Below are positions 14,966 to 61,632 of a stretch of DNA of 61,632 bases, piece after piece. The position numbers and the translations under genes were made by a program. The stretch covers positions 1-61,632 of the forward strand of contig JAWPOG010000029.1 in assembly GCA_033345155.1 (NCBI GenBank). The letters are read 5' to 3'. The DNA comes from Alphaproteobacteria bacterium (lineage in GTDB: Bacteria; Pseudomonadota; Alphaproteobacteria; Rs-D84). Within the stretch, counting starts at the first letter, position 1. The number at the start of each line of letters is the position of its first letter. The notes beneath the pieces are model-generated. The model made no database searches. It was not told the DNA's origin and worked only from the letters and a program-made list of their open reading frames with translations.

Positions 14966-14991
14966 TTGTCTGCTCTCTCTCTTGTATTGGT

Positions 14992-15765: not shown

Positions 15766-15834
15766 ATCTTTATTCCCCCGCTTAGTCTTAGATTAGTAAA
15801 TTTTAACGAATATTGTCAATAGACTTTATTATGC

Positions 15835-19387: not shown

Positions 19388-19394
19388 AAATACT

Positions 19395-20093: not shown

Positions 20094-20591
20094 GGCTGCA
20101 GGATTGCCAGCCGATGTTAAGGGGGCTACTGAATAAGGCCTGATATCCGAGGTTGTGGCGCCAGAATCATAAATATTCATTGTTTCATACGCTTCGTTGT
20201 TGCCGTGCGAATTCAAACTGGCGTTGCGGGCCGCCAACAAGCGGTTCATTTCCGCCATTGGAACAGAAATAGTTTTACAACCACGGGCAAATAAATCGTC
20301 GCCATAGATAATGTTCATAGTCGGTTTAGAAATCGATAACACACCGAAAATAATAACCAAATTGCGCATATTTACAAGCAAATCATTTTTTGCACCACGT
20401 ATCATGGATATTGCCCAACCCGTCAACAATAACCCAGTCAAAATTAAAACGGCAAACCATGCATACTGTACAAACGCTTCGAATGAACGCAGGATACATG
20501 ACGGATCTTCCATATATACAAAATCAGGGTCCACACGTACATTGTGAAACCCGGAATTTGTAAGCAATAAAGTTATCGTATCTGTATTCAT
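20082..20591 (-). CDS. Hypothetical two-TM membrane protein
   Basis: Hydrophobic segments YAWFAVLILTGLLLTGWAISMI and LVIIFGVLSI. It starts 9 nt after the upstream stop. Confidence 0.45.
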   Translation of the reverse strand: MNTDTITLLLTNSGFHNVRVDPDFVYMEDPSCILRSFEAFVQYAWFAVLILTGLLLTGWAISMIRGAKNDLLVNMRNLVIIFGVLSISKPTMNIIYGDDLFARGCKTISVPMAEMNRLLAARNASLNSHGNNEAYETMNIYDSGATTSDIRPYSVAPLTSAGNPAALDL

Positions 20592-20600
20592 TTCAATATA

Positions 20601-21503
20601 TTATGCGCCCTGTTTTTTTGAAGCGGCGGGGGTAAAGAATCCTGGAATGGAAAAATCCTCGTCGTTGGCGGCAATGCCGGCCCAGCCAAACAAATCGCCC
20701 ATCGGGCCGTTGTCATCACGTTTAGCCTTTTTAAACGGCAGAATATTTTTTAATTTCCCAATTTTGCTTGTATTAGATGTGCGTGTGGTGGGAATTTTAT
20801 CCTGATTATCAACAAATTCAGTTGCCAATTGCGCCAAAGTGGCATCGGTATCATCCCCATCAAAAACATTATCGTCAACCTGGTGTTCTGCAACAACAGG
20901 ATGCACATCTTCACGCAAAGGCGCCATTGTTTCCAGCAATTCTTCCAATGTTTTTTCCATCTGGGGGATTGGCGCATCATCTGTTATCATATCGCCAATA
21001 GTAATTGTTTCAACCGCAACATGATCGTCTTTATCAATAATATTGTCCAGTCCCAAGCTAACATTGACATCCGATATTATTGCGGCTTCTGCCACATTTT
21101 CAACAACCGGTTCTGTGATTGGCCCCTGGGTATCAGCGGGTTCAACAGTCTGTTCGGTGGGGTCCCCTTCTTGGGCGGACAAAATCGATAAAATAGGCAC
21201 AACTGGTTCTGTGGTGACAGGTTGGATTTCCTGATCCGTTGCAACGACAGGTTCAACAACGGGTTCAATTACCGATTCTGTGACAGGTGTGACAACGGGA
21301 TTGATTACTGGCTCTGTGGCTGATATTTCTGCGATTGGTGTTATATCTGAATTTGCCAATGCGCTGTCACAATCGACGGGCACACCAAACAAAACCGTAT
21401 CTTTGTCCAACCCCAATGCGTCGCGCACAGAATCAAAAGCAGCGCGAATTTCGGACATTTCAAACACTTCGTTACCAGAAATATAGATTATTTTTGTCTT
21501 CAT
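20601..21503 (-). CDS. Acidic Pro/Val/Glu-rich hypothetical protein
   Basis: Start at MKTKIIYISGNEVFE with a GGGGGA Shine-Dalgarno. Low-complexity EPVINPVVTPVTESVIEPVVEPVV region and a conserved-looking tail MGDLFGWAGIAANDEDFSIPGFF. Confidence 0.5.
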   Translation of the reverse strand: MKTKIIYISGNEVFEMSEIRAAFDSVRDALGLDKDTVLFGVPVDCDSALANSDITPIAEISATEPVINPVVTPVTESVIEPVVEPVVATDQEIQPVTTEPVVPILSILSAQEGDPTEQTVEPADTQGPITEPVVENVAEAAIISDVNVSLGLDNIIDKDDHVAVETITIGDMITDDAPIPQMEKTLEELLETMAPLREDVHPVVAEHQVDDNVFDGDDTDATLAQLATEFVDNQDKIPTTRTSNTSKIGKLKNILPFKKAKRDDNGPMGDLFGWAGIAANDEDFSIPGFFTPAASKKQGA

Positions 21504-22273: not shown

Positions 22274-24517
22274 CTATTGGCACGTCGCACCATCCCATTC
22301 TTCTCCTTCCGGACAGATACAAGTTCCAAAGTCAGAACTCCACTGGCCGCCGTAAAGATTCTCACATATGAGCTCAGAATCAGTGGTTTCACTGCCGCTG
22401 GTTCCACTGCCGCTGGTTCCACTGCCATTGCTGTCTTCTTCCTCGGGGTAGTATACGCTAAACATATTGCTGACCCATTGTGACATCTGGGTTGGGGTTG
22501 GCGCCTGTGTTGTATCACCGTTTACAGACATACAGGTCATAATCTGAGCGCGACACGCATTTATTGCGACGTTGTTGCTTGGGTTGACGCCGTTGTCAGA
22601 ATTATAATTATTCGATGTCAGACAAGAGGTCACATCAGAAATACAATTTTCCGCATAATCTGCTATCACCTGGTCCTGGGCTGCCTTGATTCTGACTAGG
22701 GTGCGTCGCAAATATTCCTTGATAACATCATTATCCACTTTATATTGCCGGTTGCCCGCTGCGCCGGTGTATGTATAATCCTGACACTTGTTCAGAACAG
22801 ACATGCACATACCATAGTTTTTACCGGTACTGCTGTCGTTATAGCCAATTTTATGCAACAAATATCCAGTCATCTCATCCGATATTTCTGCCGGATCGGC
22901 ACCCTCAATTGTTTCTTCGATATAATTGGTCAAATTGCCATCACTTGTTGTCGTAGCCCATGCATATTTGTTTCCACCATCTTGGTAATACCATGTGCTA
23001 TACAAGGTAGTATTTGCATAAGCAGCATCGTTGGTAGGCGCTCCCAGAGCAGTTTCATTAACAACATACCCCGGTGTCGATCCCACCACTATTTCACCGT
23101 CAATAATATATTTACCAGTTGGGTCCAGACAGTATTCATAATCCGCACCACAGACATAATCATCCTGCATACAGGAATCAAGTGCATTGACACACCCGCG
23201 CAGGTCATAGGAATTTTTATCCTGGGCGACCAGCAAACGTGCGCGTTGCAAAACACTTTTTGCGTTGCGTACAGTATTGTTCATTTGGTCGTTCGCATCT
23301 GACAATTCACGCTCATACGCAACACACTGTTTATCAATTTCCAAATCATAGGAATTCGAGATAACAGCAATATCAACACCCTGGGCCGCACAATCGTTTA
23401 ATACCGCAACCTTGCAACGAGATGCCGCCGTTTTATACAACGCTTCGCCTCGTTGGTTACTGATGGACGATGTGTTCGATGCAGACGAACCAAACAACGA
23501 TGTCAAATCAAAACCAGTACTGTCGATATTGAAATCCAACAATCCCGACAAATCAAAGGCCATAGCACTGTCAGTGACGGCCGACGCGCTGCCTGATTTA
23601 ACATCAACAATCAAATTTTTGATTCTGTCCAAATCGTTTTTCAACTGGGTGTTATCCTGGGTTGATTGCATTTCGATTTCAGCCTCGGTCTGGGTGAATA
23701 ATGTTTCAATATCATCCGCACTAAGGCCAATATAACGAATCTGTTGGGCTACATCTTGTAATGCCTCGGTCGCAGCCTTGAGAGCCTCTTCTGTTTTGGC
23801 ATAGTTTTTGATATTCTTAGAGCAAGAACAACGTCCCTGATTATCATCCAAAACATTACAGAAATTATCCATACAAGACATATACTGTGCCTTGCAAAAA
23901 TCGGTCACCTGCGCCAATTCGTCCAAAGACTGGGAAGTCGTAGCAGCGGTTGTATCCGAAGAAGTCGCAACCGACGCCAACGCCGGTATGCGAGCACGAA
24001 CCGCACTGGCACGCGTAGCCACACGTCCCGTATACAAAGGCGTATTAACAGTATCAGTTTGAACAATAGATGTACGAGCCGTCGTCTTGCCCTGATCCCC
24101 CTGCATAGCACGACGCGCAGTCGCAATTTGCTGTGTACCATTTGCCGCGGTGCGTACAGCACGCGCAGAAACACGAGAAGGCGCCGTCGCACGCGTCGTG
24201 GTCGCAGTGCGCGCAACAACCGCATTATTAGCCGCTGTACGATTCGCCGCAGACGTCCGACCAGACACAGCACGCGCCACACCGGTTTTGGCCGCAGTCG
24301 CAGGCATCGCACGTGATATATTTTGGCTGACCGTGCGCAAGTTATTAGTCGACGCTGGTGCAGGTGACGCAGACGTCTTGGACGCAGTTTCTGTCGATTC
24401 CTCTGCGGGTGCTGTCCCGGCAGAATATTCGATTAATTCATCGTAGTAAACGGGCGCAACCTCAGCAAATGCGGGCAATACCAACAGTCCACTAAGCACA
24501 GCAACAAATCGTTTCAT
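22274..24517 (-). CDS. Large secreted Cys-rich protein (unknown family)
   Basis: GGAAGGGAAGGA Shine-Dalgarno and signal peptide MKRFVAVLSGLLVLPAFA. Ala/Arg/Thr-rich basic low-complexity region. Many paired Cys (FCKAQYMSCMDNFCNVLDDNQGRCSC...) and a (SGT)n linker before a Cys-rich tail. Confidence 0.7.
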   Translation of the reverse strand: MKRFVAVLSGLLVLPAFAEVAPVYYDELIEYSAGTAPAEESTETASKTSASPAPASTNNLRTVSQNISRAMPATAAKTGVARAVSGRTSAANRTAANNAVVARTATTTRATAPSRVSARAVRTAANGTQQIATARRAMQGDQGKTTARTSIVQTDTVNTPLYTGRVATRASAVRARIPALASVATSSDTTAATTSQSLDELAQVTDFCKAQYMSCMDNFCNVLDDNQGRCSCSKNIKNYAKTEEALKAATEALQDVAQQIRYIGLSADDIETLFTQTEAEIEMQSTQDNTQLKNDLDRIKNLIVDVKSGSASAVTDSAMAFDLSGLLDFNIDSTGFDLTSLFGSSASNTSSISNQRGEALYKTAASRCKVAVLNDCAAQGVDIAVISNSYDLEIDKQCVAYERELSDANDQMNNTVRNAKSVLQRARLLVAQDKNSYDLRGCVNALDSCMQDDYVCGADYEYCLDPTGKYIIDGEIVVGSTPGYVVNETALGAPTNDAAYANTTLYSTWYYQDGGNKYAWATTTSDGNLTNYIEETIEGADPAEISDEMTGYLLHKIGYNDSSTGKNYGMCMSVLNKCQDYTYTGAAGNRQYKVDNDVIKEYLRRTLVRIKAAQDQVIADYAENCISDVTSCLTSNNYNSDNGVNPSNNVAINACRAQIMTCMSVNGDTTQAPTPTQMSQWVSNMFSVYYPEEEDSNGSGTSGSGTSGSETTDSELICENLYGGQWSSDFGTCICPEGEEWDGATCQ

Positions 24518-32831: not shown

Positions 32832-33917
32832 TTACAGGGTCTTTTGATTCAACTTCATATCTTGAACCAATTTTGGTGCATTTGACCCGACCTGGCTGTT
32901 GATACCAACACGATTAAAATATCTGTCGCGTGCCATGCGCACCAAACACTCGTGCGAGCGCGCCCCCAATTCCAAAACCGATGTCTGATTATTTGACAAA
33001 TACCGAATCAGTTCTTCGGTACTCATAGATTCAATGCGCTTTAATTCCTTGGCATATTCTGCGCGCACAATTTTACGCGTATCGGCCGCAAAAACATTTG
33101 AAACATCATAAGCGCTGAATAAATAGCCTATGTTTTCACGATTGTGTCCAACATAAATATGACGCCCCATCGAATCTGCAATAAACTGGCCCTGCTTAAT
33201 CAAACCACGCCCCAAATACATAATTGCGTGGAACAGGTTGTTGTTGCCACGATTGCGTGGAACAATCAAAATAGCGCCAGCATCTAAAGCGTCCGCACTG
33301 AAATTGTCGGCGGCGAATTTTTTCGTATACACTTGACGAACAGAATCAGACGCTGTTGCGCCAACCTTGTTGCGTGACAAATATTTATTCAACGCAGTAT
33401 TATACGCAGAATCAGATTCATGCATCTTACCCGTGCGAATACAACCGCCAAATTCCGGCGTGTTGTACTTTTTGCTCATATGATATTTGAACCCAGAACA
33501 AGATGTATGGCCACCCTGGGGGATAATAGTTAATGTGTCGCCCATCTCGTCCAAGGCGCGCGACAGGTGTGTGTATTGCCCATAAACACAATGCATTCCC
33601 ACAGGGGCCCCCGGCAATTCCGCACGAACCGCGGCACGATAGCCATTACGTCCCAACAAAGGATGCAATTTTTCCTGGGACTTTAACATTTTGCCAACAT
33701 ATTTGTCCAATAACGAGTCAACTTTGTCGTCCAAATATGTTTCGTTGATGACTTGTTCTGTGATACTGTCGTATGGAACGGTTATGCTGTGCCCAACGGC
33801 AGGTGAAGCATACGGAATATCGCGCCAAGTTGGATCGTTCTTGGCATCAGTCATGCCGATACACATCAATGTAGTTACACCCACCAGCACATACGGAGCT
33901 GTCCATTTCCACTTCAT
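32832..33917 (-). CDS. Secreted hypothetical protein with a possible papain-like (NlpC/P60-like) Cys/His pair
   Basis: Perfect AAGGAGG Shine-Dalgarno before MKWKWTAPYVLVGVTTLMCIGMTDA (signal peptide). GMHCVYGQYTHL, and later GAILIVPRNRGNNNLFHAIMYLGRG. Confidence 0.5.
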   Translation of the reverse strand: MKWKWTAPYVLVGVTTLMCIGMTDAKNDPTWRDIPYASPAVGHSITVPYDSITEQVINETYLDDKVDSLLDKYVGKMLKSQEKLHPLLGRNGYRAAVRAELPGAPVGMHCVYGQYTHLSRALDEMGDTLTIIPQGGHTSCSGFKYHMSKKYNTPEFGGCIRTGKMHESDSAYNTALNKYLSRNKVGATASDSVRQVYTKKFAADNFSADALDAGAILIVPRNRGNNNLFHAIMYLGRGLIKQGQFIADSMGRHIYVGHNRENIGYLFSAYDVSNVFAADTRKIVRAEYAKELKRIESMSTEELIRYLSNNQTSVLELGARSHECLVRMARDRYFNRVGINSQVGSNAPKLVQDMKLNQKTL

Positions 33918-34199
33918 AATAACCTCCTTTGCAATCAAACAGACATTACCCAGACAACTGGATTCGTCTTAATTGTTAACATTCGTTTTCTGTTGTGATT
34001 GGTTCATTGCACAAATAAAAAATTGCAATGTACATTCAGACAAATGGTCAAAACCAATGCCCCGACTTGCTGTATATTTCCAATTAAACCAGCAGCCCGC
34101 CCCGTTTCCAGGGAACCAAAGTTTATATACACTATATAGCATATTAGTGCTTTTTTGTCAAGTGTTAAGTAATGGGGCTATAAATTTTGTATCAAACAA

Positions 34200-34710: not shown

Positions 34711-36111
34711 TTATTTTTTATAATACCGTTGAACCTCGTTCATAACAAAATTGAACAATTTGCCGGCCTGGGTGTCAGACGACACAGCCCAATCACGCCG
34801 CATGTACGGCATGGCAGCAACCAATATAAACCGCGCCATAAAATGGAATATCCTGGACTGCTGGTGTTTGGACAACTTCACAGGCGCATCTTCAATACAG
34901 AAAACTTCGTTTTCAATTGCGTCATTTAATTTTTCATTTATGTTATCCAAAATCTTTTGCGGATAGTACAGTTTGCATTCCTTGGGAAAGCCCTCGAACA
35001 TTGATACATCGTTATTGCGAGAATATAAAATGTTCCAACCGACGCGATCGAACAAGTCTTCCAGACATTGGCAAATCATACGATTGTATTCTTTGACACC
35101 CAATTCATAAAAGTTTGCCAGCTGGGTCTCCATATTATCTGACTTGTTGCATTTCTTTTTACGCGTATTTTCGTACACATCGTGCGTCCTGCTTTCGAAT
35201 TCAAAGAATGTGCGCACCTGACATATAATTTCCATTGGGATGATATTATCCGCGTCGGGACCGATATTCAAAATAATCTTGGCATCACGGTAATTGCGTG
35301 GATTTTTCATATCATAAAATTTGTCACGAACAGATAATACACGTTCGGGTAAAGCCTCGTACAGACGTTCGATGAATGTTCGTGCCTGTGGCACCAGGTC
35401 AAACAAGCATTTTACACGCCATACATCACGTAAGCGTTTGCGTGGCGGGGTAATTTTGTCGATAGCGCGAACCAAATCAACCGCAATCTTTTCATGCCCT
35501 CGCCCAATAATAGACAACACTGTTTCTGATGCGGCGCTGATATATTTTTCCGAGAAACGTTTACGAATCTTATCTGCGATTGCCTGGGCGGACGCGTCAC
35601 GATCGTGCAAAGACAAAACATTACAAGCAGCATTCGCGACATCATTTACATAGTCCGCATAATATTTCCCGGTAATCTTGTCCAATGCGCGATTGACATT
35701 TTTCTGGGCGCCAACGATGACCGTCACAATTGACGACACAGCCAAATCAACACGTTGTCCAACCGCACTGGTAAAAAATTGATTGCGCATTGGGTCCGCA
35801 TCCAGACGATGATTTACCACATATGGCAACAATGGGTTAATATCAGAAATACGAATAGGCTCATCAATCGCACGATTAGTTTCGTAATCATACTTCATAA
35901 CTGCTGCCTTGGGCGCACCAAAACATTTACCAAGGGTGTAAAACACCTGGCGAAACCAGTGCATACTGTCTGAATATAAATTTTTCAGATAATCGCCGGC
36001 CTCGTCATTGATGCGTCCTTCGGCAACAGCCTTGTCTATTATTTCAAAATTTTTTCTGTCATTTTCAATAGAGATATTCTGGGCCCAATTGCCCGAAACA
36101 GAATATGACAT
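34711..36111 (-). CDS. Hypothetical protein with a divergent RelA/SpoT-like nucleotidyltransferase core (tentative)
   Basis: The segment LRDVWRVKCLFDL...VRDKFYDMKNPRNYRDAKIILNI...PMEIICQVRTFFEFESRTHDVYE follows the order of the DxxGxR / YxxxH / ExQxRT blocks of (p)ppGpp-synthetase folds. Key residues are altered. Confidence 0.4.
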   Translation of the reverse strand: MSYSVSGNWAQNISIENDRKNFEIIDKAVAEGRINDEAGDYLKNLYSDSMHWFRQVFYTLGKCFGAPKAAVMKYDYETNRAIDEPIRISDINPLLPYVVNHRLDADPMRNQFFTSAVGQRVDLAVSSIVTVIVGAQKNVNRALDKITGKYYADYVNDVANAACNVLSLHDRDASAQAIADKIRKRFSEKYISAASETVLSIIGRGHEKIAVDLVRAIDKITPPRKRLRDVWRVKCLFDLVPQARTFIERLYEALPERVLSVRDKFYDMKNPRNYRDAKIILNIGPDADNIIPMEIICQVRTFFEFESRTHDVYENTRKKKCNKSDNMETQLANFYELGVKEYNRMICQCLEDLFDRVGWNILYSRNNDVSMFEGFPKECKLYYPQKILDNINEKLNDAIENEVFCIEDAPVKLSKHQQSRIFHFMARFILVAAMPYMRRDWAVSSDTQAGKLFNFVMNEVQRYYKK

Positions 36112-40033: not shown

Positions 40034-40199
40034 AGTATGCATACGGTAGCAATCAAATCCATTTATGGCAAGCAATTTTATCATCCAAAAAAATGCTTTT
40101 TATAAAAAATCAAGCGCTTTATTTCAAAATACTTTTCCCGGACGAAAAAAAATTACCCGAAAATATGATAGAATGTATATCGGTACACAAGCGAGAGAG

Positions 40200-41300
40200 A
40201 TGGACAAATATATAAATAAAATTTTATTGGGCGACTGTCTGGAATTGATGCGCGACATCCCCGATGCATCGGTTGACGCAGTATTTGCAGATCCGCCATA
40301 TAATCTGCAACTGGGTGCAAAAACACTTTATCGCCCCGAAGATCAGACAGCAGCACGCGCAGTCCGTGACGAATGGGACTCTTTCGCATCACCCGCCGAA
40401 TATGACGAATTTACACGCGCATGGCTGGCCGAATGCAAACGCGTATTAAAGCCAACGGGGTCCATGTGGACAATCGGCAGTTACCATAATATCTTTCGTG
40501 TTGGTTCTGCATTACAGGATTTGGGTTTTTGGATTTTAAATGATATCGTTTGGGTAAAAACCAATCCGATGCCGAATTTCCGCGGAACACGTTTTACGAA
40601 TGCGCACGAAACACTGATATGGGCAACACCGACCAAGACCGGTAAATATACATTTAATTATGAAACCATGAAAAAGTTAAACGGTGGCAAACAGATGCGA
40701 TCTGACTGGGACATAAACATCTGCCTGGGCGAAGAAAGAATCAAAGGCACAGATGGTAAAAGCCTGCATAACACACAAAAACCATTGGATTTGTTGCGCC
40801 GTGTAATTTTAGCTTCAACCAAGCCTGGTGATATTATACTGGATCCATTTATGGGTTCTGGCACCACGGGTGCGGCGGCACGCGAATTGGGGCGTCAATT
40901 CATCGGGATTGAACGCGATGAAACATATGTAACAGCGGCACGTGAACGCATCGCAAATGTCAAACCAATAAACCTGTCTGATATAGAGGTAACCAAGCCA
41001 AAACGTGATGAAATTCGTGTTGCCTTCAAAGAACTTATCGAGGCTGGATTACTGTATGTCGGTCAAACACTGGTCAGTCCACGTGGCGAACGAGCCATGA
41101 TAACACACGACGGACAGCTAACACACCAATTATATGGTAAAGCATCCATTCATGTTATGGCCGCAAAACTGCAACGCAGTGTCAGCTTTAATGGATGGGA
41201 TTACTGGTCCGCAGAAAAACGCGACGGAGCATTAGTCGCAATTGACGACCTGAGAAAATATATTCGAAAAATCAAGTCTGACATTAAACAAGCCGCCTGA
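40200..41300 (+). CDS. ccrM: CcrM-like beta-class N6-adenine DNA methyltransferase
   Basis: VFADPPYNL (motif IV) precedes DPFMGSGTTG (motif I). The C-terminal about 80-aa extension is typical of CcrM. Alternative starts at 40173 and 40065. Confidence 0.8.
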   Translation: MDKYINKILLGDCLELMRDIPDASVDAVFADPPYNLQLGAKTLYRPEDQTAARAVRDEWDSFASPAEYDEFTRAWLAECKRVLKPTGSMWTIGSYHNIFRVGSALQDLGFWILNDIVWVKTNPMPNFRGTRFTNAHETLIWATPTKTGKYTFNYETMKKLNGGKQMRSDWDINICLGEERIKGTDGKSLHNTQKPLDLLRRVILASTKPGDIILDPFMGSGTTGAAARELGRQFIGIERDETYVTAARERIANVKPINLSDIEVTKPKRDEIRVAFKELIEAGLLYVGQTLVSPRGERAMITHDGQLTHQLYGKASIHVMAAKLQRSVSFNGWDYWSAEKRDGALVAIDDLRKYIRKIKSDIKQAA

Positions 41301-56439: not shown

Positions 56440-56607
56440 GTGCGCCGCTTGATGCACCACTTGCCACCATACAGCCTGCGACAGAATAGCACACCAGCGC
56501 AAAAAATCAAGTGGAAATATTATAATATTTTTTAACATTCTGTGCAAGGGCTAAATCGTGCGTTTTTTTAACAAAAATATTTTGTTGGCGGAACAAATAG
56601 TTTTTTC

Positions 56608-56637
56608 TTGCATATATTATCATTTTTTTTCTACAAT
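56608..56637 (+). promoter_or_regulatory. Sigma70-like promoter for the virB8-10-like operon (TTGCAT-18 nt-TACAAT)
   Basis: -35 at 56608-56613 and -10 at 56632-56637. The AAGGGAGAG Shine-Dalgarno at 56648-56656 then favours the GTG 56663 start. Confidence 0.45.
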
Positions 56638-56662
56638 CATCGTAATGAAGGGAGAGAAAATC

Positions 56663-57325
56663 GTGCGAAACCGCATAGAACCGCCAACTTTGTTGTCCAG
56701 AATAATGTCGTTTGTTTTGGCTGCGACGATGGTTGTGCTGGTCACATTAATAGTAACTGCGTACAAGATGTTTCCGCTGAATCGCCCCCAAGTGTTCTTT
56801 TTAACAACAACTATTCGCGACGACCAGAACGTTCGTTTAATAGAGATGCAACCAAAAAGCGAAAATTTAGACAGGTACACCAAGGCTTTTGTGCGCGAAT
56901 ATATACGACACAGAAATGAAATATTCCAAAACCCGAACGCAATGCACCAAAAATGGAACAGTGACGATGGTGCAGTTCGCATTATGTCAACAGACCGGGT
57001 TTATGCAGATTTTGCCGATACCGCTATGTTCAATGCGATTATGGCAGAAAACCCCAAATTCAATTGCCTGGTAAACTTTGGAGGTGCGCCTATGTACCTG
57101 GCATCAGAAGATGCATATCAGGTAAAATTTCGTTATTTTTGTTCCAATAGTACTGGACAGACAACACCAAAAGATTATACAATCAAGTTGAAATTGGACA
57201 CAGAAAACAACACTCGGATAAAATGGAGCGACCGGATTGACAACCCGTTGGGGTTACGTGTATCGGAATATCAAATTGTATCTGATAACGGCGACCCGCT
57301 AAACACCGGTTTTCTGAACAGATAA
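56663..57325 (+). CDS. VirB8-like type IV secretion inner-membrane protein
   Basis: N-terminal TM MSFVLAATMVVLVTLIVTAY. Periplasmic region FVREYIRHRNEIF...NPLGLRVSEYQ matches the VirB8 family signature (..Y...RE.Y.....NPLGF.V..Y). Alternative ATG start at 56645. Confidence 0.7.
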   Translation: MRNRIEPPTLLSRIMSFVLAATMVVLVTLIVTAYKMFPLNRPQVFFLTTTIRDDQNVRLIEMQPKSENLDRYTKAFVREYIRHRNEIFQNPNAMHQKWNSDDGAVRIMSTDRVYADFADTAMFNAIMAENPKFNCLVNFGGAPMYLASEDAYQVKFRYFCSNSTGQTTPKDYTIKLKLDTENNTRIKWSDRIDNPLGLRVSEYQIVSDNGDPLNTGFLNR

Positions 57326-57353
57326 AAACATATGAAATATGGGAAGGATTGGT

Positions 57354-58886
57354 ATGACATTTGCAAAGTTTTTGAAATTAAACATATCTGTTTTTTGTCT
57401 GACGGGAATATTGACATTGCCCGCATACGCAGAAGTATATGGCGTTCAAAACGCATGGGATAATCCAACCGCAAATATGGCCGCCGGCAGCATTAAACCG
57501 GGGTATGCCCAGTTGGCTTGGTCATCGGGGGCGGTTTTGCCAATCAAACTGCGTAATGGCATGGTGACGATGATTAACCTGCCAAATGGTGAACAAATTG
57601 CGGATGCGGTTGTGGGAAATGATCAATTGTTCAAATTCCAAGGGACCCAAGGCGACCGCACAATGTTTATTTCACCGGTCGGTTCAAACCAAGGATCTGA
57701 TACAAACATGATTGTGACAGGGCAATCAGGCAACAAGTATGTTTTCTATTTACGCAGCGAACCGTCCAATTCCAGCGAAATTACATATTCTCAGGTTGAT
57801 GTAGTATTGGATGGTGATGGTGTGTTGCCAACTGCGGTATCAGCGGCGCCGGCATCAGGTGGTGCGAAGTCTATTTTTCAGAAAAACACCACGACACAGA
57901 CATCTGTTGTTGGCACAGACGGCGAGGATTACGGCTGGATTAAATCGATGAAGATTGACCCATCTGAATTTAGATTTGATTTGGATATATTTGTTCCAAA
58001 CCCAGACGATTATGTAATTGCACCCGAACGCGTATGGCGCGACCGCATATTTACATACATTGATTTTGGGGACAAAGTTATCGCAATGACCCAGCGACCT
58101 GTGGTATCGCTGTTGGTCGAGGGCGGCGAATCTCCAGTTGGGTTCCGCACAGATGGTGAAGATGGTCGCCTGCTGATTGTCGAGGCTGTGGGCGATATGG
58201 TTTTACGCAGCGGGCAAAGAATCGTATGTATTAAAAAACGCGAAAAACCATTTTTGATTGCGGATACGGCATCTGTTATGGCCCTGGCTGAGGCGAATGT
58301 CGCACAAAGCATGATATCGGGACAATCGCTAAATAATGTTGCATATACAGACAGTCTGAGTGCGATGAACATGGGTATGAGTTATACAGGTTCCCCCGTA
58401 TTTGTCGGTGGTTCCCAAACAACAAGCCCTGTAACAGGTGCTGGATACTATATGCCAGCAGGTGTCGCCATGCCACAGACAACCAATTATCAATCCAGCA
58501 GTGTGGTGAATATGTTGCCCGCCCAACGCAATACAGCTGGTGCATATTTACCCCAGACAAATATTCCTTTGATTTCCAGTAATCAGGTCGGGGTTGCGAT
58601 TGAATTAAAATCGGATACTTCTGTTGATGCTTTGGATAAATATTGGGCGACTTTGCTGGCAAAATTCAGTGGCGAGGATGGACGGGGATTATTGACCCCA
58701 TATCAAGACATGGTGTTCTATACAGTTGATGCACAGGGAGTTGGCGAATTAGGCGCAACATCTTCGGCGGCGCGTCAATATCGTTTGCGGCTTGGGCCAT
58801 TGGCTGATATAGACACAGCGCAATCGCTGTGCGATAAAATACTGAAATTCAGCGGGACCAGTTGCAGTGTAATCAGAATGCAATAG
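57354..58886 (+). CDS. VirB9/CagX/TrbG-like protein fused to a C-terminal SPOR-like domain
   Basis: Signal peptide ...LTLPAYA|EV. VirB9 N-domain VTMINLPNGEQIADAVVGNDQLFKF...NMIVTGQSGNKYVFYLRS. VirB9 C-domain IFTYIDFGDK...LLIVEAVGDMVLRSGQRIVCI. Last about 95 aa VAIELKSDTSVDALDKYWATLLAKF...QYRLRLGPLADIDTAQSLCDKILKFSGTSCSVI is SPOR-like. Confidence 0.75.
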   Translation: MTFAKFLKLNISVFCLTGILTLPAYAEVYGVQNAWDNPTANMAAGSIKPGYAQLAWSSGAVLPIKLRNGMVTMINLPNGEQIADAVVGNDQLFKFQGTQGDRTMFISPVGSNQGSDTNMIVTGQSGNKYVFYLRSEPSNSSEITYSQVDVVLDGDGVLPTAVSAAPASGGAKSIFQKNTTTQTSVVGTDGEDYGWIKSMKIDPSEFRFDLDIFVPNPDDYVIAPERVWRDRIFTYIDFGDKVIAMTQRPVVSLLVEGGESPVGFRTDGEDGRLLIVEAVGDMVLRSGQRIVCIKKREKPFLIADTASVMALAEANVAQSMISGQSLNNVAYTDSLSAMNMGMSYTGSPVFVGGSQTTSPVTGAGYYMPAGVAMPQTTNYQSSSVVNMLPAQRNTAGAYLPQTNIPLISSNQVGVAIELKSDTSVDALDKYWATLLAKFSGEDGRGLLTPYQDMVFYTVDAQGVGELGATSSAARQYRLRLGPLADIDTAQSLCDKILKFSGTSCSVIRMQ

Positions 58887-58904
58887 AAATAATGGGGCTG
58901 GGGG

Positions 58905-61295
58905 ATGAGCAAACTGAAAGATCAATTTTCAGACATGCGGGAAAGCACACCAAAGAATACTCAGTGGTTGCTGATGCTGGTGGCGTTTGTGCTGGTCGTG
59001 ATTTTGTTGACTTTGCTGTTAAGTGGCAGCACCAAAAAGAAGCAAGAAGATATTTCAAAAACAGACCAGGCACCAGCCGAGTTAAAAATATCTCTGGATA
59101 CTGTGAACTGGGCTGATGTGTTGGTGGGCGACAAAAAGACCCAGACAATCAAGGTGTTTGCCACAACACCAGTTAAGATAACCAGTGTCGATTATGATAA
59201 AAGTATTACCAGTTTGTATGTTAGTACTGGGTGTGACAGGATGGGGCAAATTAATGCAAATCTAGCATGCAGAATCGAGCTGAGTTATGAACCAACTGTG
59301 GCGGCTGGGGTTATGACCGTGCCTTTGTTTATTGATTGGCATGTGGCTGATGAAACGGATGCCATGACACAAACCGACAAGATTGTTCTGATTTTGGGGG
59401 CCCAGGCACCAAAAATTGAAAATAAACCAATCGTATTGCCCAAGCCTGAACCGGAACCCGAACCAGAACCCGAACCCGAACCAATAAACAGGGAACAAGA
59501 AATTATGCAAGAGGTTGAGGCACTCGCACCACCGGTGACATTGTATGAATCGGGAATCTTGGAACCCCAGCCGGAACCAAAAACTTTTGATATTCCTGAT
59601 GGATGTTCGAGCTTTACATTTCCTGCATATGGACATTCTGGCCAGCAAATTGGCTGGATTAAGCCAAATGCGGGTATTTATGACTATCATCCGTTTTCCG
59701 ATATAACCTGCTCTAATCCGACGGGGGTATATAACCCTGATACAGGGGTGATAACTGATATGAATGGCAGAAAAATCGGAACCGACGCTGATCATATTGG
59801 CTATTCTGTTATCAGCAGCGGCGAAATGCCCCAACTGAGTAATGCGCCCGTATTCAAAAAGGTTAATCGCGCACAACAATTGGATGATGTTTCGAATATT
59901 ACAAGCGGTTCCGCACGGCGTTATGGTGTTGAAGATGGCGGTTTCAGCAATGTGCTTATCCCCGCCACTGAAAAGAAAGTGCTGCGCGGCACTTCGGGTG
60001 ATAAAGTTGTTGCATCACAGCCATACGATCGTCGTTTTGTGTTGCGTCAATATAAACCAATTCCTGCGACAATTGTGTCCGAGGTGCGCGCAGATGCCAG
60101 TGTATACGAAACTGGTAAGCCTTTGCCAGTGCGCGCAACGGTTGATCGTAATGTATTCTCGGATGACGGCAGAAATATCATCATCCCAACAGGGACATTG
60201 ATGTTAGGGTATGTAACGGGTGATTTGCCAGGGCCATACAAGGCAATTGGACGTATGCAAATAAACTGGTATCAATTTATTCGTCCAGACGGTGTTGAAT
60301 TTAATTTTAAAGAGTCTGCCAAACAACCTTTTGCAGGTGACGCCCAGGGGCGTGTTGGTGTGCCGGGTCGTGGCAGCACGGATTACATGGAACAGTTTAT
60401 TATGCCGATGCTGACAGCGGTTGTACCAGCGGCGGTAAATTTGATTGCGCCGGTGTCGGATGCGTTTGTTAACCAAATTGATTTGGATAACAATACCGTT
60501 GTGCAAAGCGGAACCGTGCGTTCGTCCGAATTGGCGAAAAATGAAATTATTACCGCATGGAACCAGGTGGCACAAAAACTGTTGGTCGATATGATGGACA
60601 ACACGGTTCCTCCGTTTACGATTGCGGCGGGTACACGCATAACCGTTTATTCACCCCAAGATTTGATTGTCGTATGCCCAGATGGCGGCAAAAGTTGCAA
60701 TATGGAAAAATATTATACGGAATCTATTGAAAACCAGGAGCGATTTGATTACACAAGCGCTGCCAAACCTAAAGTTGATAGAACTGGCGACGACTGGATT
60801 GGACAGGCGCGTTCATTCAATTTGGCAAAATATTGTGGCTCATATGAAAACGGGAAACTGAAACTGACAGAAGAAGAGTACAGGGAAATATCAGAATTGG
60901 GATACAGTTACAGTACAGTTTTGGCATATTGCCAATCAAACCAATACCAGGCAATTAATATGGCGAAACAGCAGGTATATTCAGCCAGCCAACAGGAAGC
61001 CTACCAAGAAACATACGGAACAGCTGATTATCGTAACGATGAACAAACCAAGGCATATAATGAACAGGTGTTGGGGCTGACATATAATGAAGATGGTTCT
61101 ATACAAAATCCATTTAACGCACCTGCGTCAGCCCAGTCCGATGTACCGGCCACCACTGTGCTGACATGTGAAGATGGGGTGACACCACCAGATGCGAACG
61201 GATGCTGTCCGGGCGAGATATACACCGATATGGGCGAACAAGGGTTTAATTGTTGCCCCGAGGCTGGTGGTGATTGTTTCCCGCCGATACTATAA
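58905..61295 (+). CDS. Enlarged VirB10/TrbI-like protein with a (PE)n linker and a Cys-rich C-terminal extension
   Basis: TM WLLMLVAFVLVVILLTLLL and PKPEPEPEPEPEPEP. TrbI core IPATIVSEV...IIIPTGTLMLGYV...GRMQINWYQFIRPDGVEF...AGDAQGRVGVPG...FTIAAGTRITVY. Then about 200 extra aa ending LTCEDGVTPPDANGCCPGEIYTDMGEQGFNCCPEAGGDCF. Confidence 0.75.
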   Translation: MSKLKDQFSDMRESTPKNTQWLLMLVAFVLVVILLTLLLSGSTKKKQEDISKTDQAPAELKISLDTVNWADVLVGDKKTQTIKVFATTPVKITSVDYDKSITSLYVSTGCDRMGQINANLACRIELSYEPTVAAGVMTVPLFIDWHVADETDAMTQTDKIVLILGAQAPKIENKPIVLPKPEPEPEPEPEPEPINREQEIMQEVEALAPPVTLYESGILEPQPEPKTFDIPDGCSSFTFPAYGHSGQQIGWIKPNAGIYDYHPFSDITCSNPTGVYNPDTGVITDMNGRKIGTDADHIGYSVISSGEMPQLSNAPVFKKVNRAQQLDDVSNITSGSARRYGVEDGGFSNVLIPATEKKVLRGTSGDKVVASQPYDRRFVLRQYKPIPATIVSEVRADASVYETGKPLPVRATVDRNVFSDDGRNIIIPTGTLMLGYVTGDLPGPYKAIGRMQINWYQFIRPDGVEFNFKESAKQPFAGDAQGRVGVPGRGSTDYMEQFIMPMLTAVVPAAVNLIAPVSDAFVNQIDLDNNTVVQSGTVRSSELAKNEIITAWNQVAQKLLVDMMDNTVPPFTIAAGTRITVYSPQDLIVVCPDGGKSCNMEKYYTESIENQERFDYTSAAKPKVDRTGDDWIGQARSFNLAKYCGSYENGKLKLTEEEYREISELGYSYSTVLAYCQSNQYQAINMAKQQVYSASQQEAYQETYGTADYRNDEQTKAYNEQVLGLTYNEDGSIQNPFNAPASAQSDVPATTVLTCEDGVTPPDANGCCPGEIYTDMGEQGFNCCPEAGGDCFPPIL
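59445..59483. repeat. Hexanucleotide microsatellite (GAACCN)6 encoding (PE)n
   Basis: cctgaaccggaacccgaaccagaacccgaacccgaacca, in frame within the VirB10-like gene. Confidence 0.8.
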
Positions 61296-61321
61296 AAAAT
61301 CCCCCGGGTGGGGGATTTTTT
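61296..61321 (+). terminator. Rho-independent terminator after the VirB10-like gene
   Basis: aaaaaatccccc-gggt-gggggatttttt. Confidence 0.75.
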
Positions 61322-61632
61322 AGTGGTTAGTGTAAGTGCAAGTGGCTAGTGGCGGAATCCCACTGCGCCAAGGCTTCGTGGGACAAGTGCATTAATTGTT
61401 CATTGCTCTTTGCGCGCACAAATAACAAAGATTTTCATTACCTGGGTCCCGCGGTCTAGCCGCGGGATGACAATTTTTAGTGTTTAGTGTAAGTGGTTAG
61501 TGGTTAGTGAGTGTTTTAATTGCTCTTTGCGCTGTGCGCGCATAACCTGCCCCCCGTGTGGGGCGGGACAGTTTTACTTGACCCGCCATGCGGGTCTTTA
61601 GTAAAACTTGGGTGGGGGCAAATATGACAAAA
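61321..61632. repeat. Repeat-rich intergenic region: duplicated composite unit plus REP-like hairpins
   Basis: TAGTGGTTAGTGTAAGTG-type blocks at 61321-61352 and 61478-61514. ATTGCTCTTTGCGC blocks near 61405 and 61519. Hairpins tcccac/gtggga (61358-61383), tcccgcgg-tctag-ccgcggga-TGAC (61447-61471), and gacccgc-catgc-gggtc near 61590. Confidence 0.65.

What the first reader, a model, noticed from the sequence alone, without database searches (positions are those of the whole stretch)
56608..61321. Stand-alone VirB8/VirB9/VirB10-like operon with a SPOR-fused VirB9 and an enlarged Cys-tailed VirB10, and no ATPase genes
Three co-oriented genes sit behind their own promoter, with gaps of 28 and 18 nt, and end at a strong terminator.
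- **Gene 1:** TM plus the VirB8 signature (NPLGLRVSEYQ).
- **Gene 2:** both VirB9 domains, then an S/T/Q-rich linker and a C-terminal module of about 95 aa. That module reads like a SPOR peptidoglycan-binding domain (QYRLRLGPLADIDTAQSLCDKILKFSGTSCSVI).
- **Gene 3:** the TrbI/VirB10 barrel. It is about twice the usual size, with an extra beta-rich segment after the TM, a (PE)n linker, and about 200 extra C-terminal residues ending in a CC-containing Cys-rich tail.

In Rickettsiales-type T4SS loci the canonical order is virB8-virB9-virB10-virB11-virD4. Here the operon terminates after virB10 and runs into about 300 bp of repeats, and upstream is tRNA-Trp.

Two readings fit. It could be one island of a scattered T4SS carrying unreported domain fusions. 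Or it could be an ATPase-less, peptidoglycan-anchored envelope-spanning core complex used for something else.
Basis: partly seen in the sequence, partly recalled or inferred. Interest (0 to 1): 0.7.

Follow-up and report, generated by a model that had tools for sequence, protein, structure and literature searches.

The report
Peptidoglycan-anchored type IV secretion core operon
A three-gene operon in a tiny-genome gut bacterium (Candidatus Enterousia) encodes the envelope-spanning core of a type IV secretion machine with a cell-wall-binding SPOR-like domain fused to VirB9 and a double-sized VirB10; it is intact in every related species examined with no motor ATPase gene nearby, so it is either one island of a scattered secretion system or a motor-less derivative.

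Summary
- Three co-oriented genes encode VirB8, VirB9/CagX and TrbI/VirB10, all above Pfam cut-offs.
- They sit behind a conserved promoter footprint and end at a hairpin terminator.

**Domain additions**
- VirB9 carries a C-terminal SPOR-like module. It scores below threshold here (17.8 vs 21 bits). However, 42 of 43 orthologues match, and the predicted fold matches the RlpA SPOR domain.
- VirB10 (796 aa) adds an ASH/PapD-like Ig domain, a Pro/Glu linker, a small disulfide domain and an unmatched 200-aa C-terminal extension with an invariant six-Cys tail.

**Host and conservation**
- The host is Candidatus Enterousia (order Rs-D84), a gut alphaproteobacterium with a genome of about 0.9 Mb.
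- The trio is intact and syntenic in all 78 of 80 species loci that are not cut by a contig end.
- No virB4, virB11 or virD4 lies within 10 kb in any locus. The next gene is a conserved unknown small ORF that starts at 61624.

**Relatives**
- More distant relatives with the same VirB9-SPOR fusion lie in clusters with virB7 and virB11; one also carries virB4.

**Verdict**
- Best reading: one island of a scattered, rvh-like T4SS (about 0.55).
- An ATPase-less derivative is not excluded (about 0.3), because whole genomes could not be searched.
- It is a new variant of a known kind.

The parts
56608..56637 (+). Promoter footprint: -35 TTGCAT (56608-56613), 18-nt spacer, -10 TACAAT (56632-56637), with a T-rich tract upstream
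   Evidence: The hexamers are conserved across most of 15 Enterousia species (L088 has TATGAT at -10), while the spacer sequence varies. The simple consensus scan did not call it.
56663..57325 (+). virB8 (220 aa): short cytoplasmic tail, one transmembrane helix, periplasmic VirB8 domain. Probable GTG start, with ribosome-binding site GGGAGAG at 56650-56656.
   Evidence: Pfam PF04335, 50.6 bits. Homologues are called at 220-227 aa. The start position is conserved.
57354..58886 (+). virB9 with a C-terminal SPOR-like fusion (510 aa). It carries a signal peptide ending AYA.
   Evidence: Pfam PF03524, 78.9 bits. Orthologues are full-length at 75-99% identity. The consensus start is MTF..K.
57501..57809 (+). 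VirB9 N-terminal domain (residues 55-157 of the 515-aa ORF)
   Evidence: The AlphaFold2 beta-sandwich has pLDDT about 75. Foldseek matches the TrwF/VirB9 N-terminal domain with TM 0.76-0.78.
57936..58253 (+). VirB9 C-terminal (outer-layer) domain, residues 200-305, almost invariant
   Evidence: It lies within the CagX match. Mean identity is 0.99 across 43 orthologues, against 90-95% for RpoB in four of the same lineages.
58254..58589 (+). Helix plus S/T/Q/N/G-rich linker, residues 306-417
   Evidence: The model has low confidence here. Linker length varies in distant relatives, whose proteins run from 463 to 621 aa.
58590..58883 (+). SPOR-like module, residues 418-515, with two invariant cysteines (C498, C509)
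   Evidence: Pfam SPOR, 17.8 bits here (below the 21-bit cut-off). 42 of 43 orthologues match at E <= 0.01, and 12 of 88 distant representatives match. The predicted beta-alpha-beta-beta-alpha-beta fold has pLDDT about 80. Foldseek matches the RlpA SPOR domain with TM 0.70-0.73.
58905..61295 (+). Enlarged virB10 (796 aa)
   Evidence: Pfam PF03743, 64.7 bits at residues 380-587. Orthologues are full-length at 49-98% identity and 774-825 aa.
58965..59033 (+). VirB10 transmembrane helix (residues 21-43), preceded by a conserved 20-residue cytoplasmic tail
   Evidence: The model shows a helix at residues 17-44. P16, Q20 and W21 are invariant; K5, F8, R12, T15 and K17 are nearly invariant.
59070..59408 (+). 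ASH/PapD-like Ig domain (residues 56-168, with invariant C110 and C122)
   Evidence: pLDDT is 80-89. Foldseek matches CEP192 ASH (E 2e-6), HYDIN and MSP. NCBIfam choice-of-anchor D gives E 0.002. Pfam ASH matches 4 of 44 orthologues.
59409..59588 (+). Pro/Glu-rich linker, (PE)n, residues 169-228
   Evidence: Read directly from the sequence. There are weak TonB and PARP low-complexity matches. It is the least conserved segment, at 0.36 mean identity.
59589..59804 (+). Small beta domain (residues 229-300, with invariant C234 and C269)
   Evidence: pLDDT is 67-82. Invariant columns are listed. The domain is shared with the L100 VirB10.
60027..60674 (+). TrbI/VirB10 barrel (residues 375-590), including two long helices (493-524 and 541-564) that flank an invariant loop (523-542)
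   Evidence: Pfam and NCBIfam matches. The helices appear in the model. Mean identity is 0.99 for the loop and 0.86 for the domain.
60675..61292 (+). C-terminal extension (residues 591-796): helical region with C591, C598, C644 and C676, then a Cys-rich tail (755-796) with C755, C767, C768, C783, C784 and C791
   Evidence: It has no Pfam, NCBIfam or PDB sequence match. The cysteines are invariant. Tail identity is 0.85. The extension is absent from the VirB10 of L095, L100 and L102.
61293..61322 (.). Bidirectional intrinsic terminator
   Evidence: It is a 13-nt perfect inverted repeat with T-runs on both strands.
61446..61478 (+). Second terminator-like hairpin, inside a partly duplicated spacer (direct repeats 61317-61338/61474-61495 and 61386-61421/61510-61545)
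61624..61632 (+). Start (ATG ACA AAA) of a conserved 115-aa ORF of unknown function ('small_a'), cut off by the window end
   Evidence: The orthologue lies about 230-470 nt after virB10 in 77 of 80 loci. The N-terminus MTK matches L028.

Best explanation
**What it is.** This is the chromosomal virB8-virB9-virB10 island of a vertically inherited, Rickettsiales-vir-homolog (rvh)-like type IV secretion system. The host is Candidatus Enterousia (order Rs-D84), a gut alphaproteobacterium with a genome of about 0.9 Mb that is predicted to depend on partner cells.

**How it most likely works.** Steps marked 'inferred' are not shown here.
- VirB10 is anchored in the inner membrane by its N-terminal helix.
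- It crosses the periplasm through an ASH-type Ig domain and a Pro/Glu linker.
- With VirB9 it forms the outer-membrane ring. Its two antenna helices and an invariant loop line the pore (inferred from canonical core-complex structures).
- VirB8 nucleates assembly at the inner membrane (inferred).
- The SPOR-like domain hangs from VirB9 on a flexible linker of about 110 residues. It ties the ring to peptidoglycan, probably to glycan strands lacking peptides (inferred).
- The disulfide-rich C-terminal extension of VirB10 adds an extra periplasmic layer of unknown role.
- The energising VirB4, and possibly VirB11 and VirD4, together with VirB3, VirB6 and VirB7, are encoded on other islands of the genome. 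This is inferred and not shown.

**Substrate.** It is unknown. Effector delivery to a partner cell and ComB-like DNA uptake are both possible.
For: **Component identity**
- All three proteins pass the Pfam cut-offs. The VirB9 N-terminal domain matches the TrwF fold.

**Vertical inheritance and selection**
- 282 species genomes encode a relative. All 80 loci kept have full-length virB10.
- 78 loci carry the full virB8-virB9-virB10 trio in order with no stop codons; the other two are cut by contig ends.
- nusG lies upstream in 73 of the 80, and the full rpoB...secE block is seen in the four loci examined in detail. The downstream context varies.
- Mean identity is 0.99 for the VirB9 C-terminal domain and for the VirB10 antenna loop, against 90-95% for RpoB.

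**The fusion belongs to real secretion systems**
- More distant relatives (34-42% identity, same SPOR-like tail) lie in clusters with ATPase genes.
- L099: virB4, five unknown genes, virB8, a VirB7-like lipoprotein, virB8, virB9-SPOR, a giant virB10, virB11.
- L096: virB8, virB7-like, virB8, virB9-SPOR, a 997-aa gene, virB10, virB11.
- L102: a chromosomal island virB7-like, virB8, virB9-SPOR, virB10, virB11, with no virB4 or virD4 within 10 kb.

**Scattering occurs in this clade**
- The L094 VirB4 is 65% identical to the L099 VirB4. It sits with a virB3-like gene among tig, dnaN, ruvC and lpxC.

**Other points**
- The cytoplasmic tail of VirB10 is better conserved than its periplasmic Ig domain (0.62 vs 0.50), which suggests a cytoplasmic or inner-membrane partner.
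- The host's lifestyle is described in PMC12306168.
Against: - No VirB4, VirB11, VirD4, VirB6, VirB3, VirB2 or VirB7 homologue was found in the 61.6-kb window.
- None was found in 1.76 Mb of related loci from 80 or more species.
- In the nearest ATPase-carrying relatives, virB11 directly follows virB10. In Enterousia and in the L100 lineage that position holds a terminator and unrelated small ORFs. At least virB11 has therefore been lost or moved.
- The one genomic paper on the lineage mentions no secretion system, although it did not look for one.
- The sampled loci cover only about 195 gene families, roughly 20% of a genome. The presence of ATPase genes elsewhere is an inference from relatives, not an observation.
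Confidence: 0.55

Rival explanations
1. **ATPase-less derivative.** Enterousia, and the L100 lineage, have lost the T4SS motor and inner-membrane channel. They keep VirB8, VirB9 and VirB10 as a self-standing structure that spans the envelope and is anchored to peptidoglycan. Possible roles are an envelope staple, a contact or adhesion site towards a partner cell, or a passive or otherwise energised conduit.
For: - No T4SS ATPase gene lies in the window or within 10 kb in 80 species.
- virB11, which follows virB10 in L096, L099 and L102, is missing at that position in every Enterousia locus searched and in L100.
- No VirB7-like lipoprotein gene precedes virB8 here, unlike in those relatives.
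- Enterousia added a lineage-specific 200-aa Cys-rich extension to VirB10, which could mark a change of function.
- The outer-layer parts are as conserved as RNA polymerase.
- The genome is strongly reduced, so gene loss is the default fate (PMC12306168).
Against: - From my own knowledge of T4SS surveys, no functional T4SS-derived machine without VirB4 is known.
- VirB8 and the conserved cytoplasmic tail of VirB10 are parts that normally work with the inner-membrane complex, and both are kept.
- About 80% of the genome was not sampled.
- Scattered islands are documented in the same T4SS clade.
Confidence: 0.3
2. **ComB-like DNA-uptake system.** This is a functional sub-variant of the scattered-system reading. 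The core works with VirB4 only, without VirB11 or VirD4. It brings DNA across the outer membrane and hands it to ComEC, as in Helicobacter pylori, to supply nucleotides to a metabolically poor cell.
For: - The operon lacks virB11 and virD4, like comB6-comB10 (own knowledge of ComB).
- NCBIfam ComB10 is the second-best VirB10 model, at 45 bits.
- JGI names one orthologue 'ComB9 competence protein'.
- The L102 island is flanked by comM and comEC.
- Enterousia encodes ComEC, within 10 kb of virB10 in 3 loci.
- The genome paper mentions type IV pili only for another lineage, not for Rs-D84 (PMC12306168).
Against: - The ComB10 score is far below its cut-off (45 vs 300), and the VirB10 model scores higher.
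- ComEC adjacency is seen in only 3 of 80 loci, and ComEC is widespread in bacteria that are not competent.
- No ComB4 or VirB4 was found.
- The relatives with comEC adjacency do carry virB11.
Confidence: 0.15
3. **Decaying remnant or mobile element.** The operon is a leftover of a conjugative element, or part of one.
For: - The closest plasmid-borne VirB9 (39% identity) belongs to a mobilisable Sphingosinicella plasmid with a full T4SS and a relaxase.
- The operon lacks most T4SS genes.
Against: - All three ORFs are intact in every complete locus (78 of 78), with no stop codons.
- The position next to the nusG and ribosomal-protein gene block is conserved.
- No relaxase or T4SS ATPase homologue was found by tblastn in the flanks of any locus. 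The annotated flanks carry no integrase or relaxase.
- G+C content matches the rest of the window.
- Purifying selection is strong.
Confidence: 0.03

Closest known systems
Rickettsiales vir homolog (rvh) type IV secretion system
   Same: - It is chromosomal, vertically inherited and split into islands in reduced-genome Alphaproteobacteria.
- Relatives of this operon (L096, L099) show the order virB8, virB7-like lipoprotein, virB8, virB9, virB10, virB11. That is the rvh order as I recall it (own knowledge).
- A virB3-virB4 island sits apart among housekeeping genes.
   Different: - Here the island stops after virB10, with no virB11 or virD4, no duplicated virB8 and no virB7.
- VirB9 carries a SPOR-like tail.
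- VirB10 carries an ASH domain and a Cys-rich C-terminal extension.
- No direct sequence comparison with Rickettsia proteins was possible with these tools.
Helicobacter pylori ComB DNA-uptake T4SS (comB6-comB10 operon, with comB2-comB4 elsewhere)
   Same: A VirB8/9/10-type operon without any ATPase gene, with the single VirB4-type ATPase encoded elsewhere and no VirB11 or VirD4 (own knowledge).
   Different: - Sequence similarity is weak: ComB10 scores 45 bits against a 300-bit cut-off.
- No comB6 or comB7 equivalents are present in the operon.
- The ATPase partner has not been found.
Outer-membrane core complexes of pKM101, R388 and Xanthomonas citri (VirB7/VirB9/VirB10)
   Same: - The VirB9 N-terminal fold matches TrwF, with TM 0.76-0.78.
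- The TrbI barrel with two antenna helices is present.
   Different: - These are very distant in sequence. PDB E-values are only 2e-3 for VirB9 and 8e-5 for VirB10, the latter to CagY.
- There is no VirB7 in the operon.
- The extra SPOR, ASH and C-terminal modules are absent from those structures.
SPOR-domain proteins (FtsN, DamX, DedD, RlpA)
   Same: - The beta-alpha-beta-beta-alpha-beta fold matches the RlpA SPOR domain with TM 0.70-0.73.
- The second half has the SPOR signature (YRLRLGP...A).
- Pfam SPOR matches 42 of 43 orthologues.
   Different: - The module is fused to a secretion-system ring protein rather than to a division protein.
- Only the second half of the model matches (positions 36-76), and the score is below the cut-off in this protein.
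- The first strand has E where SPOR domains have the conserved Q.
- An invariant Cys pair is present.
- Glycan binding is untested.
Sphingosinicella sp. BN140058 plasmid p1 T4SS (closest annotated plasmid system)
   Same: - VirB9 is 39% identical over residues 24-296.
- The gene order virB8-virB9-virB10 is the same.
   Different: - It is a complete system with virB2, virB4, virB11, virD4 and a MobA/MobL relaxase.
- Its VirB9 (430 aa) has no SPOR match.

Membership tests
VirB8 (Pfam PF04335) | Score above the gathering cut-off over the periplasmic VirB8 domain, preceded by one transmembrane helix | tested here: met
   50.6 bits against a 23.2-bit cut-off, covering profile positions 17-211 of 213. 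The hydrophobic segment LLSRIMSFVLAATMVVLVTLIV is read directly from the sequence.
VirB9/CagX (Pfam PF03524) | Score above the gathering cut-off covering both VirB9 domains | tested here: met
   78.9 bits against a 34.2-bit cut-off, covering profile positions 5-197 of 198. The N-terminal domain fold matches TrwF.
VirB9, NCBIfam equivalog TIGR02781 | Score of at least 217.7 bits | tested here: not met
   56.9 bits. The protein belongs to the superfamily but is not an equivalog of the canonical P-type VirB9.
TrbI/VirB10 (Pfam PF03743) | Score above the gathering cut-off over the C-terminal barrel | tested here: met
   64.7 bits against a 35-bit cut-off, at residues 380-587.
T4SS_VirB10, NCBIfam equivalog domain NF038091 | Score of at least 220 bits | tested here: not met
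   59.3 bits.
SPOR domain (Pfam PF05036) | Score above the 21-bit gathering cut-off | tested here: not met
   This protein scores 17.8 bits and matches only profile positions 36-76 of 76. Orthologues do better: 42 of 43 match at E <= 0.01, the best at 9.5e-6. Precomputed Pfam marks SPOR in P0153, P0200 and P0223.
SPOR domain (Pfam PF05036) | Beta-alpha-beta-beta-alpha-beta (RNP-like) fold | tested here: met
   The AlphaFold2 model has the elements E418-426, H429-443, E459-465, E479-488, H491-505 and E510-514, with pLDDT about 80. Foldseek matches RlpA SPOR 6i09 and 6i05 with TM 0.70-0.73.
SPOR domain (Pfam PF05036) | Binding to peptidoglycan glycan strands that lack stem peptides | not testable with these tools
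   This needs a biochemical pull-down or a localisation experiment.
Complete type IV secretion system | A VirB4-family ATPase in the same genome | tested here: inconclusive
   None was found in the window or in 91 related loci. Only about 20% of gene families were sampled, and whole genomes could not be reached.
Complete type IV secretion system | VirB11 and/or a VirD4 coupling protein | tested here: inconclusive
   Neither is adjacent to virB10 in any of the 80 loci. The rest of the genome was not searched.
Complete type IV secretion system | VirB6 channel, VirB2 pilin, VirB3 and VirB7 lipoprotein | tested here: inconclusive
   There were no tblastn or motif hits in the sampled loci. These proteins are short or divergent, so sensitivity is low.
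rvh-type T4SS (Rickettsiales) | Island order virB8-virB7-virB8-virB9-virB10-virB11-virD4 | tested here: not met
   The Enterousia island is virB8-virB9-virB10 only. The order up to virB11 is met in the relatives L096 and L099.
ComB DNA-uptake T4SS | ComB10 equivalog score of at least 300 bits (NF038092) | tested here: not met
   45 bits.
ASH/PapD-like Ig domain (Pfam PF15780; NCBIfam choice-of-anchor D) | Family score above the cut-off, or the fold | tested here: inconclusive
   Sequence evidence is weak: NF012200 scores 18.6 bits against a 45-bit cut-off, and Pfam ASH matches only 4 of 44 orthologues at E <= 0.01. The fold is supported by Foldseek matches to CEP192 ASH (E 2e-6) and HYDIN (TM 0.71) on a confident model segment.

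The most novel reading that the evidence does not exclude
Candidatus Enterousia, and the related L100 lineage, have discarded every T4SS ATPase and the inner-membrane channel. They keep VirB8, VirB9-SPOR and an enlarged VirB10 as a motor-less structure that spans the envelope and is tethered to peptidoglycan. It would serve attachment to, or exchange with, a partner cell, or envelope stability. That would be the first T4SS core complex working without VirB4.
Probability: 0.3. Interest if true: 0.85.

Novelty: new variant of a known kind. Interest (0 to 1): 0.5.

Why it matters
- **A different cell-wall anchor.** Type IV secretion cores are normally stabilised by a VirB7 lipoprotein. Here a whole clade of chromosomal, rvh-like systems has a SPOR-like peptidoglycan-binding domain fused to VirB9. 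My literature searches found no paper that mentions VirB9 together with a SPOR domain.
- **A likely interface with other cells.** Enterousia is widespread in animal and human guts. Its genome is about 0.9 Mb, it lacks respiration and most transporters, and it is thought to live off other cells (PMC12306168). A strongly conserved envelope-spanning machine is a prime candidate for that interface.
- **A possible functional boundary case.** If the ATPases prove absent, this would show that the VirB8/9/10 scaffold can have a life of its own.
- **The question is cheap to settle**, because a closed genome is public.

Tried and rejected
**Searches that led nowhere**
- A Sphingosinicella VirB4 query against the large protein collection was meant to fish out an Enterousia VirB4. 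It returned only 43 hits and none from Enterousia. The word prefilter is too lossy at this distance for the result to count as absence.
- A metagenome-contig scan with a VirB4 alignment failed with an internal error, and the cap was still consumed.
- A viral-contig scan with the VirB10 alignment found no relatives.
- A profile of the SPOR-like module against PDB sequences gave only spurious antibody hits, E about 0.1. The SPOR call rests on Pfam and on the fold.
- Rfam found nothing in the operon or its spacers apart from tRNA-Trp.
- Pfam, NCBIfam and PDB searches of the VirB10 C-terminal extension and of the downstream small ORFs a and b gave no match.
- A motif search for a VirB7-like lipoprotein (SPCACL) in Enterousia loci gave only antisense artefacts.
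- Literature searches for RF32, Rs-D84 or Enterousia together with secretion terms found nothing relevant. The 2023 Enterousia paper is not held.

**Ideas considered and rejected**
- Mobile-element and pseudogene readings were rejected on synteny and ORF integrity.
- The small ORFs after virB10 in relatives are not VirB2 pilins; they have no hydrophobic segments.
- The motif CCGCGGGATRAC is shared with the L100 repeats but is not conserved in other Enterousia loci.

**Structure prediction limits**
- The AlphaFold2 models were poor for the VirB9 C-terminal domain and the TrbI barrel because the alignments were shallow. No statement is made about those parts from the models.

Full report
**What is in the window**

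Between 56608 and 61322 lie three + strand genes.
- The first matches VirB8: Pfam PF04335, 50.6 bits against a 23.2-bit cut-off.
- The second matches CagX/VirB9: PF03524, 78.9 bits against 34.2.
- The third matches TrbI/VirB10: PF03743, 64.7 bits against 35.
- NCBIfam agrees at family level, but every score is far below the equivalog cut-offs.
- The PDB holds only very distant relatives. E-values are 0.006 for VirB8, 0.002 for VirB9 (TrwF) and 8e-5 for VirB10 (CagY).

These are therefore true but divergent T4SS core proteins.

**Gene starts, promoter and terminator**

Gene 1 most likely starts at GTG 56663 (220 aa), behind a GGGAGAG ribosome-binding site. Homologues are called at 220-227 aa.

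The generic promoter scan found nothing upstream. An alignment of 15 species shows why the region is still a promoter. TTGCAT (56608-56613), 18 nt and TACAAT (56632-56637) are conserved in most of them, while the spacer varies.

The operon ends at a 13-nt perfect inverted repeat with T-runs at 61293-61322.

**VirB9 fusion**
- After the two VirB9 domains come a helix, an S/T/Q/N/G-rich linker and a C-terminal module of about 95 residues.
- In this protein Pfam SPOR scores 17.8 bits, below the 21-bit cut-off, and matches only the second half of the model.
- 42 of 43 orthologues match at E <= 0.01, the best at 9.5e-6.
- The AlphaFold2 model gives a beta-alpha-beta-beta-alpha-beta unit with pLDDT about 80.
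- The first Foldseek matches outside T4SS proteins are the RlpA SPOR domain (TM 0.70-0.73) and DedD.

I call it SPOR-like. The fold and the family-level sequence signal are met, the formal cut-off is not met for this sequence, and glycan binding is untested.

**VirB10 architecture**

The parts, from the N-terminus:
- a conserved 20-residue cytoplasmic tail and a transmembrane helix;
- a confident Ig-type beta-sandwich at residues 56-168, with pLDDT 80-89. It matches ASH/PapD-like domains such as CEP192, HYDIN and MSP. Sequence support is weak;
- a Pro/Glu-rich linker;
- a small beta domain with an invariant Cys pair;
- the TrbI barrel, with two long helices flanking a 20-residue loop that is 99% identical across 44 sequences;
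- a 200-residue extension without any family match. It ends in a tail with six invariant cysteines.

**Whose genome**
- A scan of species-representative genomes found relatives in 282 genomes. The 80 loci kept are all MAGs labelled Candidatus Enterousia, Alphaproteobacteria bacterium or uncultured Rickettsiales. One is a closed chromosome of 958,618 bp.
- Enterousia belongs to order Rs-D84. Its genomes are 0.75-1.0 Mb. It lacks respiration, the TCA cycle, flagella and most transporters, and it is proposed to depend on partner cells (PMC12306168). That paper does not mention any secretion system.

**Conservation**
- The 78 loci not cut by a contig end carry the trio in order, with no stop codons.
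- nusG lies upstream in 73 of the 80. The four loci examined in detail show the full block rpoB, rplL, rplJ, rplA, rplK, nusG, secE. The genes further downstream differ.
- Against four relatives, RpoB is 90-95% identical, ribosomal proteins 86-97%, VirB9 72-85%, VirB8 49-80% and VirB10 54-69%.
- Mean identity across the orthologue alignments is 0.99 for both the VirB9 C-terminal domain and the VirB10 antenna loop.

This is a vertically inherited operon under strong selection. It is neither a mobile element nor a remnant.

**What lies beyond the window edge**

The last nine bases of the window (ATGACAAAA, 61624-61632) start a conserved 115-aa ORF. It lies about 230-470 nt after virB10 in 77 of 80 loci. 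A second conserved ORF of about 112 aa follows in 73 of 80. Neither matches any family. So no virB11-virD4 pair follows the operon.

**The ATPase question**
- None of the window's large ORFs is a T4SS ATPase.
- I ran tblastn with VirB4, VirB11, VirD4 and accessory proteins from four related systems (Sphingosinicella p1, L096, L099, L102). The target was the window plus 91 Enterousia loci, 1.76 Mb in all. Only VirB8, VirB9 and VirB10 were hit.
- These loci hold only about 195 gene families, roughly a fifth of a genome. The tools did not let me read the rest of any Enterousia genome.
- Absence from the genome is therefore not established.

**Relatives that decide the reading**

An exhaustive search of 1.84 billion cluster representatives found VirB9 proteins that are 34-48% identical over the full length. 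They include the tail motif (F/Y)RLR(I/V)GP...C...C.VVR.Q. Pfam SPOR matches 12 of 88 long representatives. Their contexts form a series.

| Locus | G+C | Gene content |
|---|---|---|
| L099 | 52% | virB4; five unknown genes; virB8; 59-aa lipoprotein; virB8; virB9-SPOR; 2653-aa VirB10; virB11 |
| L096 | 35% | virB8; 71-aa lipoprotein; virB8; virB9-SPOR; 997-aa gene; 1628-aa VirB10; virB11 |
| L102 | 40% | chromosomal island: 63-aa lipoprotein; virB8; virB9-SPOR; 1507-aa VirB10; virB11; flanked by comM and comEC; no virB4 or virD4 within 10 kb |
| L095 | 36% | virB9-SPOR; 663-aa VirB10, next to hpf |
| L100 | 34.5% | rpsB; tsf; virB8; virB9-SPOR; 733-aa VirB10; then a secreted 135-aa ORF and repeats; no virB11 |

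- The small lipoproteins share a lipobox and an SPCACL motif, and look like VirB7.
- The L099 VirB4 is 65% identical to a VirB4 that sits with a virB3-like gene among tig, dnaN, ruvC and lpxC in a genome of 29% G+C (L094).
- From memory, the order virB8-virB7-virB8-virB9-virB10-virB11 is the Rickettsia rvh order.
- The ASH domain is also present in the L102 and L100 VirB10. The Cys-rich C-terminal extension is specific to Enterousia.

**Interpretation**

The VirB9-SPOR fusion is a feature of a clade of chromosomal, rvh-like T4SSs, and in that clade it occurs together with ATPase genes. Islands are split in that clade. The simplest reading is that the window shows the core island of such a system, with VirB4 and other parts elsewhere.

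Enterousia and the L100 lineage have lost or moved virB11, and no virB7 precedes virB8. The system is therefore at least trimmed. It could be VirB4-only, like ComB of Helicobacter, or it could have no motor at all.

My estimates are 0.55 for a scattered system and 0.3 for an ATPase-less one. A ComB-like uptake role is a sub-variant at 0.15. A remnant or mobile element is at 0.03.

**Mechanism proposed**

The domain identities, order, conservation and context are shown. The steps below are inferred.
- VirB10 bridges the inner and outer membranes.
- VirB9 and VirB10 form the outer ring.
- The long flexible VirB9 linker lets the SPOR-like domain reach the peptidoglycan layer and fix the ring there. 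This possibly happens at denuded glycans near division sites and new poles.
- The disulfide-rich extension of VirB10 forms an additional periplasmic layer.

**Novelty**

NCBI annotates these proteins simply as TrbG/VirB9 and TrbI/VirB10 family proteins, or as hypothetical. No paper in the library mentions VirB9 together with a SPOR domain. None of the titles and abstracts listed for papers holding both 'type IV secretion system' and 'SPOR domain' reports such a fusion. This is a new variant of a known kind of system. One profile search of a public closed genome would settle the ATPase question.

Noticed in passing
window 61624-61632; e.g. L005:12710-13617, L010:12661-13386: Two conserved small ORFs of unknown function follow virB10 after a spacer of about 300 nt. 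'small_a' is 115 aa with the motifs EKFQNAEQLWFWFLYS and GDRRRAPHQ. 'small_b' is about 112 aa with invariant C19, H24 and C85. They occur in 77 and 73 of 80 Enterousia loci. The first one starts in the last 9 nt of the window. There is no Pfam, NCBIfam or PDB match.
   Followed up: partly
L096:1022-1237, L099:9011-9190, L102:9028-9219: Distant relatives carry VirB7-like lipoproteins of 59-71 aa, with a lipobox and the motif PxGIG...SPCACL, next to virB8. No such gene was found in the Enterousia loci.
   Followed up: partly
L096:6649-11535, L099:11608-19569, L102:11563-16086: VirB10 homologues of 1507-2653 aa occur in the same T4SS clade. Some have faint Pfam 'Bflower' matches. The N-terminal expansion goes far beyond the Enterousia protein.
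   Followed up: no
L102:7164-8792 and 18865-21015; L020:16881-18749; L039:19271-21124: The virB7-virB11 island of L102 is flanked by comM and comEC. A ComEC homologue also lies within 10 kb of virB10 in 3 Enterousia loci. This is a possible hint at DNA uptake, or it may be chance.
   Followed up: partly
window 13853-17073 (- strand): An OmpA-family protein (61 bits) sits next to a weak MotA/ExbB-family protein (20.9 bits, below its cut-off) and a 412-aa ORF without any match. The lineage is reported to lack flagella. This may be a Tol- or Mot-like energiser pair.
   Followed up: no
window 400-1167 (- strand): An ORF matches the Pfam phage T7 capsid assembly domain (38.2 bits, above its cut-off) in what otherwise looks like a chromosomal housekeeping region.
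   Followed up: no
window 40065-41300 (+ strand): A DNA methyltransferase with N6_N4_Mtase and RAMA domains, the architecture of CcrM-type methylases of Alphaproteobacteria.
   Followed up: no
window 22274-24517 (-), 4193-5854 (+), 34711-36111 (-), 32832-33938 (-): Four large ORFs (747, 553, 466 and 368 aa) have no significant Pfam match. They fit the 'hypothetical membrane-bound proteins' noted for this lineage in PMC12306168.
   Followed up: no
window 56480-56560: A second conserved block, AAAAAATCAAG.GGAAA-TATTATAATATTTT, lies between tRNA-Trp and the virB8 promoter. It coincides with a - strand promoter-like site (TGCACA, 16 nt, TATAAT) that would drive tRNA-Trp, secE and nusG. The two promoters are divergent.
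   Followed up: partly
window 61460-61472; L100:12345-13115: The motif CCGCGGGATRAC occurs once in the spacer after virB10 in the window. It occurs four to five times in the repeat region after virB10 of the distant L100 and L101 lineage, and in no other Enterousia locus.
   Followed up: partly
L010:13549-14272: Small secreted Cys-rich ORFs (CCCPGG, CKPCPAG) lie downstream of the operon in one relative. They vaguely resemble the CCPG motifs of the VirB10 tail.
   Followed up: no
L094:8497-11235: A contig of 29% G+C carries a virB3-like and virB4 island among tig, dnaN, ruvC, lpxC and ros/mucR. This shows chromosomal scattering of this T4SS clade in another reduced-looking alphaproteobacterium.
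   Followed up: partly
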